A DNA stretch of 21,559 bases, taken from positions 1-21,559 of IMG/VR virus record IMGVR_UViG_2711768076_000009; one strand, given 5' to 3'. Both the position numbers and the translations under genes were made by a program. The notes beneath the pieces are model-generated. The model was not told the origin of the DNA. It saw only the letters and a program-made list of their open reading frames with translations, and did no database searches. Positions 2,843-16,966 of the stretch are shown piece after piece. Origin of the DNA: a virus. Taxonomy: Duplodnaviria; Heunggongvirae; Uroviricota; Caudoviricetes. How positions within the stretch are numbered: position 1 is the stretch's first letter; each line of letters begins with the position of its first letter.

Positions 2843-3183
2843 CAGTGAGTGACCTCTTCAAAGGTACAGTTAAAATCGGTATACATGGCATTATCCGAAA
2901 TGCTCCACTCCCTGCAGACAACCCGGACAGTCCTGTTGTGTTTTGGCGGACGCCACAAAAAAGCACGAATCCCGGCATGACGGGATAAAAAACTGTCCAG
3001 CGCGGCACGGGAATATTCATCTGTGACACGAAATACCGGTTTAAACGTTTTCAGATCCGCATTCAGACCACCAGCCCGTCTCTGTTCATATCCGTCACCA
3101 AACTTTACCGTAATAACTGATGGCTTTCGTGTCGTCTCCATCCCCTCACGGGGGATCCAGTTAAAAACTTCAGGCTCAGGCAC
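2842..3183 (-). CDS. Minor tail protein M (divergent from lambda M)
   Basis: ORF track gives 2842..3228 (128 aa), but that start lies inside the tape-measure gene. A GTG at 3183-3181 is preceded by GGAGGA at 8-nt spacing and gives about 113 aa, close to lambda M at about 109 aa by my recollection. Alternative ATG starts at 3198 or 3141. Conserved FGDGY motif. Confidence 0.65.
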   Translation of the reverse strand: MPEPEVFNWIPREGMETTRKPSVITVKFGDGYEQRRAGGLNADLKTFKPVFRVTDEYSRAALDSFLSRHAGIRAFLWRPPKHNRTVRVVCREWSISDNAMYTDFNCTFEEVTH

Positions 3184-6100
3184 TGTACAATCCTCCATCC
3201 CGACGCGATGACTGCATAATTGACACAACCCTGCTGTCGATCAGATCCACCAGTCCCCTGGCTGAGCGCGCATCTATCTCGCCATTGCTCCCTTGATTCT
3301 GAATGCTGATGTGATACACGGGAGAATAAACAAACCCCCCGCCACTATTCACATTGCCAATGGCTCTGACCCCAAGAGAGCCGTCCGCTGCCCGTGTCAG
3401 TGGCATGATAGCTTCAGGCCCGGCCTCGCCCATCAGCCCGGCACCTTTCGCAAAAGCAAAATACGTCGGTGTATCCACAATAGTGTTACTGTAAGCACTC
3501 AGATTTGCCGATGTGTAAACACCACCTTTTGCGTTTGCCACCGCCCCCGAAATCCATCCGCCGACCGTACCAAGCCACCCTCCGGCACCGGAGAGTGACT
3601 TCAGTCCGTTAACAATGGCCGCATTCATCAGAATTTTTGAAACTTCCTGGAGAATTGAACTCCCCCAGTTTCTCCAGTCCACAACATTTCCGGCCAGTGC
3701 ATCGGAAATATTTGATACCAGTCCGTCCATAGTGGAAACGACAGCATCTGCCGCCTGCGAAGCATAATCGGTGGCACTGTCTGCCCAGTTGGTCAGCCCC
3801 TCCTGGAGTCCTGCATTCCAGTTATTACGTAAAGCATCGGCCTTTGCATAATAATCCTGCTGATCGCTGAGACGCTCTTCCAGATATTTTTTATTCAGTT
3901 CTTTCTCCTGTTTCCACAGGGCTTCTTCAATTTCTCCGGCCTGATACTGTCTCAGCAGCTCGTTATTTTTCTGCTCAAACTCATGCCGGATACTCCACAT
4001 TTCCTGGAGTCGTTCACGCATCCGTGAGCCTTCACCATATCCCAGTAACTGCGCGTCGTTAGACGCCCGGGTACTGGCATTACTGTCCGCCAGGCTGCTT
4101 TCATACGCAGCAAGCTGCTCACGAATCTTTTTCTGGTCGATGAGTGCTGCATTCTGCAAAAGCGTTTTTTTCTGCGCTTCTGACAGGGTTGATAATTCGC
4201 CCTGACTGACCTGATATTTCATCTTAGCCAGTTCAGTATTCTGCCCTGCCAGTGCTATTTGTTCTTTTTGCTGTTTAATCAGCCGTTTATAAATATCTTC
4301 TGTTTTTTCCGCTTCGGTCTTTTTATGCGCTTTGGGTTTATTTGCCTGGTTATTTCGCCAGGCATCCAGTGAGTTATTGATATAATTCTGTCTGGCTGTC
4401 TGATACGCCTCTCCCACAAAGCCGAGATCATCCGCAGCATAACCCAAGCGGGCACGCTCACGGGCTTCCCCCTTCAGGCGGGACAGAGCCAGTTCGCGCT
4501 CGCTGTTATTCAGTGCAGTCTGCTGTTTATCATCCAGGGTTGCCTGTGGTAGCCGTAACGGTACATTCACCAGCCCCTGTCGCTGCTGAAGTAATTCATT
4601 ACCGAGCCCGAGAAGGCGATTAAACTCGGTATGCTGCCCATTCATGATCAACAGGGACTGATACGCTTTGTTTTGTTCCGCGGCCTGTTGACGGATCAAC
4701 GCCACCCGTCGCTCCTCCAGCCCGGCAAGCACATCCTGAATGGATTGCGCTTTGCCCTGCATTTGTGTGAGACGGGACTGTTCAACTGCCAGTTGATTTG
4801 TTGCTTCTGCAAGCCCTTCTGTGACAGTTTTTACCGACGTCATGTGGTTAATCATAAAACCGTTATCGGTTGTCCAGCCCGGGTTTGCCAGCACATACTG
4901 ATAGCCAGCAATTTTTTCCTGTAAGGATTTAATCTTACTTTTCTGCTCGTCAATTAACCTGTTTTGCTCATCAAGTGCCTGCCGCGTCTTTTCCTCATTA
5001 TCTGACGCTTCAGGAAGCGACATTGCCGACGTTTTCTGGCGAATTTCGTCGATTGTTGCGGCATACTGGCGTGCAGATTCTCTGGCCTGCTCCTGATTCT
5101 GATACATCGTGTACCAGGCCGTCGCCCCCAGCATGACGAGTCCCGGCACACCACCAACCAACCCCAGCGCACCACTTAACAGACGACTCCCCACTGACGT
5201 GACAGTATTCAGCGTTGTCTGTGCCGCTGTTCTGGCCGCAATATTACGGGTAAGTGACGCCTGGGCAGCTGTCAGCTTCGCTTCTGCTGCGGCCTGCCTT
5301 TCGGTACCGCGAGCAGCAACAACCGCCTGTTGCGCACGATAAACCGCCGCACGCGCCCTGGCGGTTGCTATCTGTGTCCCCCGAAGTTGCGCTTCAGCAA
5401 GAGCCACTTCGTTTCTGGCTGCAGTAATTAATCCGGCAGTTGCAGATCCAGCAGAAGACGCCATATTGCCAAAATATCGGGCTACCCCGACGGCAACCAG
5501 AGCACCGGCAGCGGTTGCCACGGTGTCAATATTGCCTGCAAGACCATTCAGCACCCCGGAGAGCGTCTTCGTCACTCCGCTTGCCTCGTTCGCACCACCA
5601 ACCCAGGCCATAAAGGCGTTTTCAACTTTGGTTGCAGAGGATGAAACCGTATCAGGCATTGCTGCATATTCATCACGCAACGCCCCAAGCTGACTAATCA
5701 GTGCAGGAACAACCTTATCGGCGGTCAACTTTCCGTTATCCGCCATGGCCTTCAGATCCTTACGGGCAACTCCCATTCCCGCAGCCAGAGCACGAATAAC
5801 ACGATCGCCGTTCTCATTCACCGAGTTAAACTCTTCACCGCGCAGCACTCCCTGCGCCAGAGCCTGACTGAACTGCGTGATCACCGAACTGGCTTCTGCT
5901 GTACTGGCACCGGATAATTTCAGGCCCGTGGAGATCGCCTCGGTGACTTTCAATACCTCCTCAGAACTGTAACCATACTCCCGCATGGAAGCTGCAGAGC
6001 GGGCAAAAAGGCTGGCGTTATCAGAAAAAGCCGTCCCCGTTCTCTGGCTGATCGCCATTAATTCACGCTGTGATGACTGAAAATCATCACTGGACTGTGA

Positions 6101-6409
6101 GGCCTGCTTCAGACGGGCATTTACTGAATTCCACTCATCGGCGAGAGAAATAAGATGACCGGTAGCAAAAGCCCCGGCAAATGCCCCCGCCATGTTCAGT
6201 GCCGAAGATTTAGCTGTATTTATCTGATCCGTCACTTCTGCCAGTGCACGCCGCATTTCACGGGATGCAGCAGCGGACTGCCGGCCTCCGTTCTGCATGG
6301 TACGGTAGTAATCCTGCCCCATACGCGAAGCCCGGGAGATCTCTGACTGGAATGACCGGGAATTTGCCGAGATTTTAATAATCAGTTCACGTAATGTCGC
6401 CACACTCAT
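3176..6409 (-). CDS. Tail tape measure protein (1077 aa)
   Basis: Long Ala/Gln-rich ORF with extended heptad-like regions and a Gly-rich C-terminus; lies between G-T and M; GGAGA Shine-Dalgarno immediately before the ATG. Confidence 0.9.
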   Translation of the reverse strand: MSVATLRELIIKISANSRSFQSEISRASRMGQDYYRTMQNGGRQSAAASREMRRALAEVTDQINTAKSSALNMAGAFAGAFATGHLISLADEWNSVNARLKQASQSSDDFQSSQRELMAISQRTGTAFSDNASLFARSAASMREYGYSSEEVLKVTEAISTGLKLSGASTAEASSVITQFSQALAQGVLRGEEFNSVNENGDRVIRALAAGMGVARKDLKAMADNGKLTADKVVPALISQLGALRDEYAAMPDTVSSSATKVENAFMAWVGGANEASGVTKTLSGVLNGLAGNIDTVATAAGALVAVGVARYFGNMASSAGSATAGLITAARNEVALAEAQLRGTQIATARARAAVYRAQQAVVAARGTERQAAAEAKLTAAQASLTRNIAARTAAQTTLNTVTSVGSRLLSGALGLVGGVPGLVMLGATAWYTMYQNQEQARESARQYAATIDEIRQKTSAMSLPEASDNEEKTRQALDEQNRLIDEQKSKIKSLQEKIAGYQYVLANPGWTTDNGFMINHMTSVKTVTEGLAEATNQLAVEQSRLTQMQGKAQSIQDVLAGLEERRVALIRQQAAEQNKAYQSLLIMNGQHTEFNRLLGLGNELLQQRQGLVNVPLRLPQATLDDKQQTALNNSERELALSRLKGEARERARLGYAADDLGFVGEAYQTARQNYINNSLDAWRNNQANKPKAHKKTEAEKTEDIYKRLIKQQKEQIALAGQNTELAKMKYQVSQGELSTLSEAQKKTLLQNAALIDQKKIREQLAAYESSLADSNASTRASNDAQLLGYGEGSRMRERLQEMWSIRHEFEQKNNELLRQYQAGEIEEALWKQEKELNKKYLEERLSDQQDYYAKADALRNNWNAGLQEGLTNWADSATDYASQAADAVVSTMDGLVSNISDALAGNVVDWRNWGSSILQEVSKILMNAAIVNGLKSLSGAGGWLGTVGGWISGAVANAKGGVYTSANLSAYSNTIVDTPTYFAFAKGAGLMGEAGPEAIMPLTRAADGSLGVRAIGNVNSGGGFVYSPVYHISIQNQGSNGEIDARSARGLVDLIDSRVVSIMQSSRRDGGLYSA

Positions 6410-6419
6410 TCTCCGGACG

Positions 6420-6440
6420 AAAAAAAACCGCCGAAGCGGT
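6420..6440 (-). terminator. Intrinsic-terminator-like hairpin between T and tape measure gene
   Basis: Minus strand reads ACCGC-ttcg-GCGGT followed by a run of 8 T (plus-strand A run 6420-6427); located 10 nt upstream of the tape measure ATG. Confidence 0.5.
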
Positions 6441-6449
6441 TATGTTGAC

Positions 6450-7138
6450 TCACTGAGACACTATTAAAAGCGCGTTTTCCAGTCCAGCAAATGGATCTGA
6501 TACGCCTTCTGTCTGCTCCTTCTCCCACTGAAGAAGCGCATCATTCAGTGGCACTTTGACCCCCTGCGCACCGTAAACAGCTGAAACAATCTGGGCAGCC
6601 CGGATATCAGCCCGTTCGTCCCCCAGCGGGCTGAACCTGTCAAATTCTGCCCACATCATGATTTCTGATGCGGACATTTCCCGGCGTAACTCTGACAATG
6701 TGCGCCCCATCCTGAGCGCCAGCATCATCAGAAAACGCATCCCCGGAAGCGCTACTTTTTTTTAACCTCGCCGGCATCACTGATCAGTTCCAGAGACTGC
6801 CGAAGAAGCCGCGCATGCACCGGGCCATACACGGCAATCACCTGTTCACGATCATCCTCTGAAAATACAGGTTGCAGTCCGGTATCACACAGAACATCGA
6901 TGAACAGTTCAACATCCGCTTCCAGATTTCGGCGGGCGCGCTCCGCAACGGATAACGGTGTCTCATCATCTTTTGCTTTAACGATCTCCTGCCAGCGCAA
7001 CCAGGCTTCTGCAGAAGGTTCCCGTAATACAACCGTTGCCCCTTCCCATTCAGGCACATCAACAGTTTTATGGCGAAACCCCGACATCGTTGCCAGTGCC
7101 AGATTACGGATATTTTTAGTCATCACATCTATCCTCAT
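6450..7138 (-). CDS. Tail assembly chaperone G-T fusion via programmed -1 frameshift
   Basis: The T reading frame (ORF 6450..6740) is the -1 frame relative to G and is open back through the slip site; predicted junction ...GEVKK-KVALPGMRFLMM.... Slippery heptamer A AAA AAG at 6761-6755 on the minus strand. Confidence 0.7.
6752..7138 (-). CDS. Tail assembly chaperone G (0-frame product)
   Basis: 128-aa acidic ORF ending GEVKKK-stop; sits immediately after the major tail gene (TAATG overlap at 7138) and before the tape measure, the canonical G position. Confidence 0.8.
   Translation of the reverse strand: MRIDVMTKNIRNLALATMSGFRHKTVDVPEWEGATVVLREPSAEAWLRWQEIVKAKDDETPLSVAERARRNLEADVELFIDVLCDTGLQPVFSEDDREQVIAVYGPVHARLLRQSLELISDAGEVKKK
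6755..6763 (-). other. Slippery sequence (A AAA AAG) for G-T -1 ribosomal frameshift
   Basis: Plus-strand T run 6756-6763 preceded by C6755; minus-strand G frame reads GTT AAA AAA AAG TAG. Confidence 0.65.
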
Positions 7139-7842
7139 TAACTGACGGTAACAGTGCAGGAAGTAGAGGTCACCTTGTTAACAGGGCTTGCTGAATCAGA
7201 AATCTCGCAGGTATACGCACCGGCATCACCGGATGCTGCTGATGCCTTACTGAACGTTGCCGCCGTCTGTCCGGAAACAGGAGAACCACCTTTTTTCCAG
7301 GCATAAGAATAAGGCGGCACACCACCCGCAGCCTCAACCGCCATTTCAAGTTTCGCTCCAGAAGAAACCCGCAGCGTGCTTTTTAAATCGACCTTCACTT
7401 TCAGCGGCTCTGTCGTCAGCACAGGTTTACCTTTCAGGCGCAGAGAAAACGTTGCAGCCACAACACCATTGGTTCCTGCAGACCAGGTATGCTGACGCAC
7501 CTCTGCCATAAAGGTAAATCCGTTGCCTGACGGAAAAATAACTTTAAAGCCATACGTGGTGTCATTGTCATAGGCACTGCGCAACGCGTTCTGGGCAGCA
7601 TTCAGATAAAAGTTGCCTGACATGGAAATCTCTGAAGTAGCCCCAAGGCCGTTAATATTTTCCTGCTCAACAGAACACAGCGTGGTGACATCAATATCCT
7701 GCTTTTGTCCTGCGGTAAACTGCACCTCTTTGATTGTACAGCTCAGGCCAAGATAGCTGGCAGAATCCAGGGTTTCTGCTGTTACCGGTGCAGACGAAAT
7801 CATAATTTTCGTCAGTTGCGAACGCTCAAAATTAGAGGACAT
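7138..7842 (-). CDS. Major tail protein with C-terminal Ig-like domain
   Basis: 234-aa ORF upstream of G/T; C-terminal ~90 aa (KVKVDLKSTLRVSSGAKLEMAVEAAGGVPPYSYAWKKGG...CTVTVS) resembles a Big_2-type Ig fold as carried by lambda gpV. Confidence 0.8.
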   Translation of the reverse strand: MSSNFERSQLTKIMISSAPVTAETLDSASYLGLSCTIKEVQFTAGQKQDIDVTTLCSVEQENINGLGATSEISMSGNFYLNAAQNALRSAYDNDTTYGFKVIFPSGNGFTFMAEVRQHTWSAGTNGVVAATFSLRLKGKPVLTTEPLKVKVDLKSTLRVSSGAKLEMAVEAAGGVPPYSYAWKKGGSPVSGQTAATFSKASAASGDAGAYTCEISDSASPVNKVTSTSCTVTVS

Positions 7843-7861: not shown

Positions 7862-7881
7862 TAAAACCCGCCAGCGGCGGG
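7862..7881 (-). terminator. Hairpin plus T-run upstream of major tail gene
   Basis: Minus strand reads CCCGCC-gct-GGCGGG followed by TTTTATTATTTT, overlapping the AGGAGA Shine-Dalgarno of the major tail gene. Confidence 0.4.
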
Positions 7882-9430: not shown

Positions 9431-10648
9431 TTATTTGCCAGTGAGCGCCTTGATGGCTGCCACATCTTCCAGCACACAGTCAAAACGATGGAAAGCCAGA
9501 AATGCCACCTGATCAAACTCAGCATAACGCTCAACCAGACGTTTCAGTTCCATATAAGTAACGCGGCGAATGATAAAGCGGTTGAAATCCCCCAGGAAAA
9601 TGAATTTTTTTCCGATACCAATCCCGTCAATAGCCTGATCAATAACATAAGGGATCCCCAGCACAGTAGCCGGCGTACCGCCTGCAATATCCGGCAGCCA
9701 TAACGGGCGTTTCTGTCCATCCTCCATCTCTTCAATAGTCTGCAATGTGGCATCATTGAATGCCCAGCGGTATTTCGGCCCACCACGATATGCCGGATCA
9801 ATGGCATGTTTCAGGGCATTCATTTCTTTCCAGGTGAAAGCGGCAGAGGCTGCAGTCTGGATGGTTCCCGTCACCGACGCTGCCAGCCCTTTTGGCTGTA
9901 ACGGTGATCCCGTTCCGGTCCCCTGAACCAGATATTTTGCCTCTCCACGACCAATACGCTGGGCAATACGGTTTGCCAGATAAGATTCAATATCCACCCC
10001 ACTGTCCTGGAGCAGCTCATTGGACACACGAATTATTTTTGATGACAGCTTTTTAGCCCCCAGAATAGCGGTCCCGAACGTCACATCCTGTTCCGTTGCG
10101 GCTGTATTCTCCGCCAGCAGTTCGCCCTCTTCAGTCGTGCCATCAGACGTTGACCAGGTGATATCCTGCCCGGTTGATGTGGTCAGAAGTTGCGCCACAC
10201 TGGCAATCCCGCCATAAGCCTTCATGGTGTCAATGATTTTGTTACGCATCTGCGTGGGCACCGTATATCCGCCCTGAGAATCCGTTGTTACACTCTGAGC
10301 CCGCAGTTCACGCATCAGATTACGCTCTTCAGCATTCAGTTCTGCAAATCCGGCACGCAGAAAACGGTTAAATGCCGCAGCGCGCTTCTCTTCCACCGCC
10401 TTTTTCCCGTTCTCCGCCTCATTATTCTGGCGCTCTTCCGGCCCGGACTCATCCACATATGCCTGATCCTGACGGCGCAACTCTTCTTCACGGGCGATTT
10501 GCTCATCCAGCGCATCCAGCTCAGCTTTCGCCCTGTTCCACTCTGCCCGTTGCTCATCAGTCCATGCGTTATCACCAATTTTTTCATGCAGTGCACGCAT
10601 ATCCTTTGCAATGGTGTTTCGTTTTTGCTTCATCTCATGAAGTTTCAT
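9431..10648 (-). CDS. Major capsid protein, HK97 fold, with N-terminal delta (scaffold) domain
   Basis: 405-aa ORF; N-terminal ~100 aa is a charged, coiled-coil-like region (MKLHEMKQKRNTIAKDMRALHEKIG...EEELRRQDQ) typical of HK97-type delta domains; follows the prohead protease. Confidence 0.88.
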   Translation of the reverse strand: MKLHEMKQKRNTIAKDMRALHEKIGDNAWTDEQRAEWNRAKAELDALDEQIAREEELRRQDQAYVDESGPEERQNNEAENGKKAVEEKRAAAFNRFLRAGFAELNAEERNLMRELRAQSVTTDSQGGYTVPTQMRNKIIDTMKAYGGIASVAQLLTTSTGQDITWSTSDGTTEEGELLAENTAATEQDVTFGTAILGAKKLSSKIIRVSNELLQDSGVDIESYLANRIAQRIGRGEAKYLVQGTGTGSPLQPKGLAASVTGTIQTAASAAFTWKEMNALKHAIDPAYRGGPKYRWAFNDATLQTIEEMEDGQKRPLWLPDIAGGTPATVLGIPYVIDQAIDGIGIGKKFIFLGDFNRFIIRRVTYMELKRLVERYAEFDQVAFLAFHRFDCVLEDVAAIKALTGK

Positions 10649-15762: not shown

Positions 15763-15766
15763 TTAG
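15763..15766. repeat. IS5 target site duplication TTAG (left copy)
   Basis: TTAG immediately outside the left inverted repeat; fits the known IS5 target preference YTAR. Confidence 0.8.
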
Positions 15767-16962
<1,196 letters not shown>

Positions 16963-16966
16963 TTAG
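16963..16966. repeat. IS5 target site duplication TTAG (right copy)
   Basis: TTAG immediately outside the right inverted repeat. Confidence 0.8.

What the first reader, a model, noticed from the sequence alone, without database searches (positions are those of the whole stretch)
6450..7138. Programmed -1 frameshift joining tail chaperones G and T at an A AAA AAG slip site
G ends ...GEVKKK-stop with the codons GTT AAA AAA AAG TAG. The downstream T frame is exactly -1 and is open back through the slip site, so slipping on the heptamer gives a G-T fusion of about 228 aa. The G/G-T pair is a conserved feature of long-tailed phages; the slip site here is the poly-A type rather than the GGGAAAG I recall for lambda.
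Basis: partly seen in the sequence, partly recalled or inferred. Interest (0 to 1): 0.5.

Follow-up and report, generated by a model that had tools for sequence, protein, structure and literature searches.

The report
Ordinary phage tail-chaperone G/G-T frameshift site
This is the well-known trick by which long-tailed phages make two tail-assembly helper proteins from one message by letting a few percent of ribosomes slip back one base, here in a common E. coli prophage; the reading is correct but ordinary.

Summary
On the minus strand, a lambda gpG-family gene (7123..6752) ends GTT AAA AAA AAG TAG. The gpT-family frame is exactly -1 and is open only from 6761, so the overlap is the heptamer itself (6761..6755). 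A -1 slip gives a 224-aa G-T fusion, or 229 aa from the upstream ATG at 7138, rather than 228.

The heptamer alone is not rare in this window. The evidence comes from its phase, its position and comparison with relatives:
- T is -1 in 69 of 72 species-level relatives.
- All 68 distinct junctions carry an in-phase A AAG in the overlap, against 5.3 expected.
- A AAA AAG followed directly by a stop is the commonest junction type in the family.
- The -1 linker keeps a proline encoded by all four Pro codons.
- One 224-position PHROG profile covers both halves.

HK97's homologous pair is already annotated as a -1 frameshift. A published E. coli reporter carrying the junction of a 64%-identical Stx-prophage homologue, with the same A AAA AAG TAG, gave 7% frameshifting. 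I found no stimulatory RNA structure.

Verdict: a correct call of a known mechanism, missing from the database annotation I inspected. Novelty is nil and interest is low. RNA polymerase slippage on the A8 run remains possible as a minor extra route to the same protein.

The parts
6752..7123 (-). G gene: tail assembly chaperone of 123 aa plus its stop. An alternative in-frame ATG at 7138 would give 128 aa.
   Evidence: PF06222 Phage_TAC_1 at 2.4e-58, full length. PDB 2ob9, the HK97 tail assembly chaperone, at 4.6e-49. phrog_344 and phrog_14766 positions 1-121. RefSeq annotates a 372-nt CDS here. GAGG at 7136..7133 lies 9 nt upstream of the ATG at 7123.
6755..6761 (-). Slip heptamer A AAA AAG, in X XXY YYZ phase relative to G.
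   Evidence: The block AAAAAAGTA is invariant across 17 diverse relatives. This heptamer is the majority type in the family.
6756..6763 (-). A8 homopolymer run containing the heptamer's A residues. It is a possible secondary site of RNA polymerase slippage.
   Evidence: With identical flanks, 670 complete E. coli genomes have A8, 13 have A7 and none has A9. In relatives the run is 3 to 9 A long.
6752..6754 (-). Frame-0 stop codon TAG, immediately 3' of the heptamer.
   Evidence: The stop is adjacent to the slip codon in 45 of 70 family junctions.
6762..6764 (-). TAA in the -1 frame that closes the T frame just upstream of the heptamer. It confines productive shifting to the A run.
   Evidence: overlap of 7 nt.
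6741..6755 (-). Linker read only in the -1 frame, encoding V-A-L-P-G, between the slip site and the first ATG of the T frame.
   Evidence: The linker is V-x-x-P-... in relatives. The Pro is kept in 65 of 68 and is encoded by all four Pro codons: CCG 21, CCC 20, CCT 13, CCA 11.
6450..6761 (-). T segment in the -1 frame, through its stop at 6452..6450. It supplies the C-terminal 101 aa of the fusion, read from 6755.
   Evidence: PF06223 Phage_tail_T at 4.1e-19. phrog_14766 positions 126-220 and phrog_337. RefSeq annotates only a 92-aa 'phage tail assembly protein T' starting at 6728.
6450..7123 (-). Predicted G-T fusion coding region, 224 aa, produced by a -1 shift at 6761..6755.
   Evidence: One search gives the sequence and length. 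This equals the 224-position phrog_14766 profile and the 674-nt two-piece joined CDS of HK97 and HK446.
7138..7842 (-). Upstream neighbour: major tail tube protein with a C-terminal Ig-like domain.
   Evidence: Pfam Ig_2, Phage_TTP_11 and Phage_tail_2.
3176..6409 (-). Downstream neighbour: tail tape measure protein, 1077 aa.
   Evidence: PF06120, PF20155 and PF09718.

Best explanation
**The site.** This is the programmed -1 ribosomal frameshift site of a lambda/HK97-type tail assembly chaperone pair in a lambdoid E. coli prophage.

**The two products.**
- Most ribosomes translate G (123 aa) and stop at the TAG at 6754..6752.
- A small fraction, probably around 5-10%, slip back one base while lysine tRNA occupies AAA-AAG at 6760..6755.
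- E. coli's single lysine tRNA pairs better with AAA than with AAG (established knowledge).
- Those ribosomes then read GTA GCG CTT CCG GGG ATG... and make a 224-aa G-T fusion.

**The signal.**
- It is a bare heptamer followed directly by a stop codon. There is no conserved RNA structure and no properly spaced upstream Shine-Dalgarno-like element.
- The slow-to-decode stop next to the slip codon plausibly helps. This step is inferred.

**Function, by homology with lambda (review PMC5009743).** G and the G part of G-T coat the tape measure protein. The T part recruits the tail tube protein. The fixed G:G-T ratio is needed for tail assembly.

**Shown and inferred.**
- Shown here: the sequence anatomy, the family membership and the conservation.
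- Shown by others on a homologue with the same junction: actual frameshifting.
- Inferred: the efficiency and the function in this particular prophage.
For: - **Anatomy:** in-phase A AAA AAG, a -1 T frame open only through the heptamer, and an adjacent stop.
- **Family:** PF06222 and PF06223, PDB 2ob9, and one 224-position PHROG profile spanning both halves.
- **Synteny:** tail tube, G, T, tape measure.
- **Frame conservation:** T is -1 in all 14 phage loci from E. coli to Burkholderia and in 69 of 72 species-representative genomes.
- **Slip site conservation:** an in-phase A AAG lies in the overlap in 68 of 68 distinct junctions against 5.3 expected. A canonical heptamer lies there in 48, against 0 in 7,327 background codons.
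- **Close relatives:** 66 IMG/VR copies keep A8G-TAG while the codons just upstream vary.
- **Linker is coding in -1:** the linker Pro is kept in 65 of 68 with all four synonymous codons. The first ATG lies downstream of conserved residues in many relatives and is absent in L110 and L117.
- **A natural fusion:** a DNA-level A9 copy (L150) encodes an in-frame fusion...AKKKVTQPGMQFLM..., the counterpart in that relative of the product predicted here.
- **Prior annotation:** HK97 and HK446 carry an annotated -1 join.
- **Experiment on a homologue:** a cassette identical to the L003/L012 junction (AGA AAA AAG TAG, only 6 As) gave 7% +/- 0.79 frameshifting in E. coli. The G GGA AAG type gave 6% +/- 0.61 (PMC3711429).
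Against: - There is no direct measurement on this sequence.
- The heptamer alone is not statistically unusual in the window.
- No stimulatory structure was found: z = -1.3 and +0.2 for the window, and 0 consensus pairs across 17 relatives. Efficiency may therefore be low.
- In-frame ATGs exist at 6740 and 6728, so some independent T synthesis cannot be excluded from sequence alone.
- The A8 run could let RNA polymerase slippage contribute the same product.
- The relatives compared are phylogenetically related, so the counts overstate the number of independent observations.
- An IS5 element elsewhere in the late region may mean this prophage copy is not fully functional.
Confidence: 0.88

Rival explanations
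1. Transcriptional slippage is the main route. RNA polymerase stutters on the A8 run (T8 in the template) and adds one A to a fraction of the mRNAs. Normal translation of those mRNAs then gives exactly the same G-T fusion (GEVKKKVALPG...).
For: - The run here is 8 A long.
- Slippage has been reported as productive on runs of 8 A in some systems, and selection against such runs is evident at about 9 A (PMC1088944).
- In the GeneTack reporters, efficiency rose with poly-A length.
- Indel variants of this very run occur in assemblies.
Against: - The family-wide constant is an in-phase A AAG, not a long run. Run length ranges from 3 to 9 A, and many members have G GGA AAG or GCA AAG.
- The tested homologue has only 6 As and still gave 7%.
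- The third Lys codon is always AAG. That matters for tRNA slippage but is irrelevant, or even counterproductive, for polymerase slippage.
- A8 arises simply from one extra Lys codon (AAA) in front of the heptamer.
Confidence: 0.07
2. There is no recoding. G and T are two separate proteins, as RefSeq annotates them. T would start from its own ATG at 6728 (92 aa) or 6740 (96 aa), possibly by termination-reinitiation after the G stop.
For: - RefSeq and GenBank records for this prophage list two separate CDSs and no join.
- In-frame ATGs exist 12 and 24 nt after the G stop.
- The Met of the conserved F-L-M motif is present in most relatives.
Against: - The ATG at 6740 has GGGG directly abutting it, and the ATG at 6728 has only GGGGA 11 nt upstream.
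- Protein-level conservation, with synonymous variation, extends upstream of the first ATG in many relatives. Two relatives have no ATG at all in this region.
- Independent initiation does not explain why T is always -1 and always overlaps an in-phase slip site.
- The PHROG fusion profile and the HK97 annotation support a single product.
- From my own knowledge of Levin, Hendrix and Casjens 1993, T in lambda is made only as G-T.
Confidence: 0.04
3. The site is a mutational relic or a phase-variable homopolymer. On this reading the A run would be an indel hotspot that switches tail assembly on and off, or the split simply reflects a frameshift mutation in a formerly fused gene.
For: - A7 variants occur in 2 IMG/VR contigs and in 13 complete E. 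coli genomes.
- An A9 in-frame fusion occurs in a degenerating symbiont, and an A6-for-A7 variant occurs in a Serratia genome.
Against: - With identical flanks, A8 is found in 670 genomes, A7 in 13 and A9 in none. The A7 genomes listed are porcine ETEC strains with consecutive accession numbers, which suggests shared ancestry or a homopolymer sequencing error.
- The split -1 arrangement is ancestral across Enterobacterales, Burkholderia and lambda.
Confidence: 0.01

Closest known systems
Phage HK97 gp13 / gp13-14 (NP_037708 / NP_037707), annotated -1 frameshift
   Same: - Same Pfam and PHROG families.
- The G-T fusion query is about 61% identical to the translated DNA of HK446, whose junction and alignment scores match HK97's.
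- The solved gp13 structure, 2ob9, matches at 4.6e-49.
- Same position between the tail tube and tape measure genes.
- Same -1 direction and the same 224-aa fusion length.
   Different: - HK97 slips on CGG GAA AAG, 15 nt before the G stop, with a 49-nt overlap. Here the site is A AAA AAG abutting the stop, with a 7-nt overlap.
- HK97 has a moron (gp15) between T and the tape measure gene. This window has only a terminator-like hairpin there.
E. coli O157 Stx-prophage tail chaperone pair (for example BP-4795 ORF65/66), the 'Phage_TAC' cluster tested by Antonov et al. 2013 (PMC3711429)
   Same: - Identical heptamer and adjacent stop: A AAA AAG TAG.
- Same linker pattern, KKVA.P.
- About 64% protein identity.
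- Measured at 7% -1 frameshifting in E. coli.
   Different: - The codon before the heptamer is AGA rather than AAA, so the run is A6 rather than A8.
- 51 of the 75 cassette bases are identical to the window.
- The overlap is 22 nt rather than 7 nt.
Phage lambda G / G-T
   Same: - Same Pfam families for both halves.
- Same gene order, V-G-T-H.
- Same -1 shift with AAG as the A-site codon.
- Same presumed role in coating the tape measure protein and recruiting the tube protein.
   Different: - Lambda's heptamer is G GGA AAG, with a 61-nt overlap and a stop 15 nt downstream of the slip site.
- Pairwise similarity to the window proteins is barely detectable: alignment scores of 31 and 36.
E. coli dnaX -1 frameshift site
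   Same: Same heptamer, A AAA AAG, and the same slipping lysine tRNA.
   Different: - From established knowledge, dnaX needs an upstream Shine-Dalgarno-like element about 10 nt away and a downstream stem-loop to reach about 50%.
- Here GAGG ends only 3 nt upstream of the heptamer and is not conserved.
- There is no downstream structure.
- The expected efficiency is a few percent.

Membership tests
Lambda/HK97-type G / G-T tail assembly chaperone frameshift (Xu, Hendrix and Duda 2004) | The gene pair lies between the major tail (tube) gene and the tape measure gene. | tested here: met
   Tail tube at 7138..7842, G, T, then tape measure at 3176..6409, all on the minus strand.
Lambda/HK97-type G / G-T tail assembly chaperone frameshift (Xu, Hendrix and Duda 2004) | The upstream ORF belongs to the gpG chaperone family. 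| tested here: met
   PF06222 at 2.4e-58, full length. PDB 2ob9 at 4.6e-49. phrog_344.
Lambda/HK97-type G / G-T tail assembly chaperone frameshift (Xu, Hendrix and Duda 2004) | The downstream ORF belongs to the gpT family. | tested here: met
   PF06223 at 4.1e-19. phrog_337 and phrog_14766 positions 126-220.
Lambda/HK97-type G / G-T tail assembly chaperone frameshift (Xu, Hendrix and Duda 2004) | The downstream ORF is in the -1 frame and overlaps the end of the upstream ORF. | tested here: met
   The T frame is -1 and the overlap is 7 nt. The same holds in 69 of 72 relatives.
Lambda/HK97-type G / G-T tail assembly chaperone frameshift (Xu, Hendrix and Duda 2004) | An in-phase slippery sequence lies inside the overlap. 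| tested here: met
   A AAA AAG at 6761..6755, in phase. Against background: 68 observed and 5.3 expected for A AAG, and 48 observed and 0 expected for canonical heptamers.
Lambda/HK97-type G / G-T tail assembly chaperone frameshift (Xu, Hendrix and Duda 2004) | The T part has no translation start of its own and is made only as a fusion. | tested here: inconclusive
   ATGs exist at 6740 and 6728, both with poor Shine-Dalgarno context. Conservation in relatives extends upstream of any ATG, and two relatives lack an ATG. Protein data would be needed to settle this.
Lambda/HK97-type G / G-T tail assembly chaperone frameshift (Xu, Hendrix and Duda 2004) | The fusion protein is actually made, at a low fixed ratio to G. 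| not testable with these tools
   There is only indirect evidence: 7% for a homologous cassette with the same heptamer and stop (PMC3711429).
dnaX-type stimulated -1 frameshift | An upstream Shine-Dalgarno-like stimulator about 10-14 nt 5' of the heptamer. | tested here: not met
   The only SD-like element, GAGG at 6768..6765, ends 3 nt before the heptamer. It is replaced in relatives, for example by GCT GAA GTT ATT, GCC AGA or GCA GAA.
dnaX-type stimulated -1 frameshift | A downstream stem-loop or pseudoknot 5-9 nt 3' of the heptamer. | tested here: not met
   The window fold is no better than shuffles: z = -1.31 and +0.18. RNAalifold on 17 relatives predicted 0 pairs.
Programmed transcriptional slippage (T. 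thermophilus dnaX or IS-element type) | A conserved homopolymer run of about 9 or more A or T at the frame junction. | tested here: not met
   The run is A8 here. It is 3-9 in relatives and usually 7 or fewer. A homologue with A6 still shifts at 7%.

The most novel reading that the evidence does not exclude
The stop-adjacent 'bare' sites of this family, A AAA AAG-stop and especially the non-canonical GCA AAG TAA or GAA AAG TAA variants, may work by a different mechanism. This would be single-tRNA, P-site slippage of lysine tRNA opposite a slowly decoded stop codon, rather than classical tandem slippage. In the A8 clade represented by this window, RNA polymerase slippage may add a second, independent input, so that the G:G-T ratio would be set at two levels.
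Probability: 0.15. Interest if true: 0.35.

Novelty: already known. Interest (0 to 1): 0.08.

Why it matters
It matters mainly for annotation. This prophage is in about 900 of 5,426 complete E. coli genomes and in several deposited phage genomes. In every record of this lineage that I inspected, G and T are listed as two separate genes, and T is given an arbitrary internal start. The real products are most likely G (123 aa) and a 224-aa G-T fusion.

Biologically it adds nothing new. It is one more instance of the conserved tail-chaperone frameshift, and it uses the slip site that is in fact the commonest one in its family.

Tried and rejected
1. **Downstream stimulatory RNA structure.** Folds of the 95 nt after the site and of the 101 nt around it were no better than shuffled sequence. 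RNAalifold on 17 diverse stop-adjacent junctions gave no pairs. Rejected.
2. **Upstream Shine-Dalgarno-like stimulator.** GAGG is too close to the heptamer and is not conserved. Rejected.
3. **Heptamer rarity as evidence.** There are 8 copies against 4.6 expected in the window. This is not informative on its own, so I replaced it with the phase and overlap control.
4. **Phase-variable A run.** With identical flanks, 670 genomes have A8, 13 have A7 and none has A9. Rejected.
5. **NCBIfam.** There were no hits for either half, so this was uninformative.
6. **First genome-collection scan.** I repeated it with the 7-sequence alignment A2.
7. **IMG/VR scan.** It returned mostly near-identical copies. 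These were useful only for microconservation.
8. **My first '68 of 68 AAG' count.** It was circular, because the site finder looked for AAG. I corrected this with a background-frequency control.
9. **Xu et al. 2004.** I could not read the paper, which is not in the library. Statements about it rest on citing papers and on my own knowledge.

Full report
**1. What is in the sequence**

The genes of this window run on the minus strand.
- Reading that strand, an ORF starts at the ATG at 7123. An alternative in-frame ATG lies at 7138 and overlaps the stop of the preceding gene.
- The ORF ends ...GGC GAG GTT AAA AAA AAG TAG, that is ...GEVKKK-stop, with the TAG at 6754..6752.
- The next ORF is in the -1 frame. 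Its first ATG is at 6740 and its stop is at 6452..6450.
- That frame is closed by a TAA at 6764..6762, which overlaps GTT-AA, and is open from 6761 onward.
- The two frames therefore overlap by exactly 7 nt, and those 7 nt are A AAA AAG (6761..6755).
- The first A is the third base of a G codon, which is the X XXY YYZ phase needed for tandem -1 slippage.
- Any -1 shift within the A run gives the same protein...GEVKKK-VALPGMRFLMM..., 224 aa from the ATG at 7123 or 229 aa from the ATG at 7138.

I take 7123 as the start for three reasons:
- GAGG lies 9 nt upstream of it.
- RefSeq uses it.
- The Pfam profile and all homologues align from there.

**2. Is it more than chance?**

The motif alone is not.
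- AAAAAAG occurs 8 times in the window against 4.56 +/- 2.13 expected from shuffles.
- Of the three minus-strand copies that fall inside genes, only this one is in slip phase.

The weight of evidence comes from position and comparison, set out below.

**3. What the genes are**
- The upstream ORF is a full-length member of PF06222, the lambda gpG-type tail assembly chaperone (2.4e-58).
- The -1 segment matches PF06223, minor tail protein T (4.1e-19).
- The gene before the pair is a tail tube protein with a C-terminal Ig-like domain.
- The gene after it is a 1077-aa tape measure protein.
- The solved HK97 tail assembly chaperone, PDB 2ob9, matches the G part at 4.6e-49.
- In PHROGs, the G part matches positions 1-121 and the T part matches positions 126-220 of one 224-position profile, phrog_14766. 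This fits a family built from full-length fusion proteins.
- The rest of the window is a lambdoid late region: RusA, antiterminator Q, holins, a GH19 endolysin, HNH, terminase, portal, protease, capsid and tail genes.

**4. Where it occurs and how it is annotated**
- The 801-bp region is 97-99.6% identical to 11 deposited E. coli phage genomes.
- It is present in 901 of 5,426 complete E. coli genomes.
- In the records of this lineage that I inspected, G and T are listed as separate CDSs. RefSeq gives T a 92-aa ORF starting at an internal ATG at 6728, and there is no slippage join.

**5. Comparative test**

*Phage loci.* Fourteen phage loci were compared. The relatives fetched with the fusion query ranged from close relatives down to 36-39% identity (Bordetella and Burkholderia phages). 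Lambda and HK97 were added by accession.
- The T frame is -1 relative to G in every one.
- A AAA AAG is used by this prophage, the Stx prophages (AGA AAA AAG TAG), Proteus phage Pm34, Bordetella PHB09 and Burkholderia phi1026b.
- G GGA AAG is used by lambda and mEp506.
- HK97 and HK446 have CGG GAA AAG.

*Species-representative genomes.* The scan gave 72 loci at 40-70% identity across Enterobacterales.
- T is -1 in 69 of them.
- The three exceptions are damaged copies:
  - L107 has an indel inside G, with an intact junction.
  - L121 has A6 where its relatives have A7.
  - L150 has an A9 run that fuses G and T in frame, in a degenerating insect symbiont. That natural fusion reads ...AKKKVTQPGMQFLM..., the counterpart in that relative of the product predicted for a -1 shift.

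*Junction types.* The 70 intact junctions, counting the window, divide as follows:

| Junction type | Number of 70 |
|---|---|
| A AAA AAG, stop adjacent (as in this window) | 32 |
| A AAA AAG, stop 3-24 nt downstream | 13 |
| G GGA AAG | 5 |
| Only N NNA AAG, stop adjacent (for example GCA AAG TAA) | 13 |
| Only N NNA AAG, stop 3-15 nt downstream | 7 |

*Control for circularity.* My site finder looked for A AAG, so I checked its background frequency.
- An in-phase A AAG occurs at 0.66% of G codons outside the overlap.
- From that rate, 5.3 junctions would be expected to contain one. The observed number is 68 of 68 distinct junctions.
- Canonical heptamers occur in 48 junctions and never in 7,327 background codons.
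- These loci are related to each other, so the counts are not independent events. The pattern still holds across several slip-site types and genera.

*Close relatives.* In 80 IMG/VR contigs:
- 66 keep A8-G-TAG while the preceding codons vary (GGC, GGA or GGT GAG GTT, or GAA GTT ATT).
- 12 are HK97-type.
- 2 have A7.

Across 17 diverse stop-adjacent junctions, the only invariant block is AAAAAAGTA.

**6. Is the linker translated in the -1 frame?**
- After the slip site, the -1 frame reads V-x-x-P-(G/L/E)-x-x-F-L-M-x-L-A-L-R in nearly all relatives.
- The proline is kept in 65 of 68 distinct loci.
- It is encoded by all four Pro codons: CCG 21, CCC 20, CCT 13 and CCA 11. That is the signature of selection on the amino acid rather than on the nucleotides.
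- In many relatives the first ATG of the T frame is the Met of F-L-M, downstream of these conserved residues. L110 and L117 have no ATG there at all.
- This argues against T being made from its own start.
- In this window, the ATG at 6740 has GGGG abutting it and the ATG at 6728 has only a distant GGGGA.

**7. Mechanism**
- A AAA AAG is the classic E. coli shifty heptamer, as in dnaX and IS911.
- From established knowledge, the single lysine tRNA reads AAG poorly and re-pairs well with AAA.
- No stimulators are evident:
  - The downstream RNA folds no better than shuffles, with z = -1.31 and +0.18.
  - RNAalifold finds no consensus pairs in relatives.
  - The SD-like GAGG ends only 3 nt upstream of the heptamer and is not conserved.
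- The feature that recurs is a stop codon directly after the slip codon, in 45 of 70 junctions. By inference, this may help by leaving the A site slow to fill.
- Direct experimental support exists for a homologue. Antonov et al. 2013 cloned two cassettes from their HK97-like 'Phage_TAC' cluster between GST and MBP in E. coli (PMC3711429).
  - ...GCG GGA AAG CCG TAA... gave 6% +/- 0.61.
- The first cassette is identical to the junction of my loci L003 and L012, and it has the same heptamer-plus-TAG as this window.
- For function I rely on lambda, via the review PMC5009743:
  - G and G-T bind the tape measure protein.
  - The T part binds the tube protein.
  - A ratio of about 30:1 is required.
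  - Neither protein is in the virion.

**8. Rivals**

*Transcriptional slippage.* This is a fair rival because the run is A8.
- Runs of 8 A can be productive in some systems (PMC1088944), and adding one A gives the identical protein.
- However, the family constant is an in-phase A AAG, not run length, which ranges from 3 to 9.
- The tested homologue has only A6.
- The terminal codon is always AAG.
- I treat polymerase slippage as at most a minor contributor.

*Separate T protein.* This is discussed in section 6 and is unlikely.

*Phase-variable or mutational reading.* This is unlikely.
- With identical flanks, 670 complete genomes have A8, 13 have A7 and none has A9.
- The A7 genomes listed are porcine ETEC strains with consecutive accession numbers.

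**9. Comparison with the known, and verdict**
- The site passes every membership feature of the lambda/HK97 G / G-T system that sequence analysis can test.
- It does not have the dnaX-type stimulators or a transcriptional-slippage-length run.
- It is the same kind of site as the HK97, lambda and Stx-prophage pairs, and its slip-site type is the family's commonest.
- The only thing missing is the join in the public annotation.
- Novelty: already known. Interest: low.

Noticed in passing
window 6426-6441 (minus strand); also 7867-7881 (minus strand): A strong intrinsic-terminator-like hairpin, AACCGCTTCGGCGGTT followed by T8, sits in the 40-nt gap between the T stop (6450) and the tape measure start (6409). 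It would interrupt the tail operon unless Q-modified polymerase reads through. A second one lies just upstream of the tail tube gene. HK97 has annotated terminators at comparable places: one between the major tail gene and gp13, and one after the gp15 moron that follows G-T. The hairpin after T may therefore mark a lost or vacant moron slot.
   Followed up: partly
window 15764-16965: An IS5-type insertion sequence of about 1.2 kb. It has 19-nt terminal inverted repeats at 15764-15782 and 16947-16965, and a 326-aa DDE_Tnp_1/DUF772 transposase ORF at 15914-16894 on the minus strand. It sits between the lysis cassette and the HNH/terminase genes, inside the late operon, and could be polar on head and tail gene expression.
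   Followed up: partly
L054, L074 (IMG/VR); H100-H107 (E. coli ETEC genomes); L121; L150: There are homopolymer-length variants of the slip-site run.
- A7 instead of A8 occurs in 2 IMG/VR contigs and in 13 complete E. coli genomes; those listed are porcine ETEC strains with consecutive accession numbers. In these copies G reads on for 43 extra codons and T ends up at +1.
- A6 instead of A7 occurs in a Serratia genome.
- A9 occurs in Ca. Symbiopectobacterium endolongispinus and gives a constitutive in-frame G-T fusion.

I did not determine whether these are real mutations or homopolymer sequencing errors.
   Followed up: partly
L005, L099, L111, L112, L115, L126, L130, L131, L134, L135, L139, L155, L157, L162 (Klebsiella, Pantoea, Erwinia, Yersinia and other prophages): About a fifth of family junctions have no canonical X XXY YYZ heptamer. 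They have only A AAG directly followed by TAA, for example GCA AAG TAA, GAA AAG TAA or GTA AAG TAA, with T still at -1 and overlaps as short as 7 nt. This suggests single-tRNA slippage opposite a stop codon. I know of no test of these particular sites.
   Followed up: partly
window 9431-10648 compared with L002 4554-5770: The genome with a 100% identical G/T region (NZ_AP022105) has its major capsid gene annotated as a frameshifted pseudogene. The window's capsid ORF is intact at 405 aa.
   Followed up: no
window 7138-7842 (minus strand): The tail tube protein carries a C-terminal Ig-like domain (Pfam Ig_2 and Ig_3, residues about 150-233), like lambda gpV. An AAAAAAG at 7290-7296 inside this gene is not in slip phase.
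   Followed up: partly
window 7121-7140 (minus strand): There are two candidate starts for G. The ATG at 7138 overlaps the tail tube stop as TAATG and has no Shine-Dalgarno sequence. The ATG at 7123 has GAGG 9 nt upstream.
   Followed up: yes
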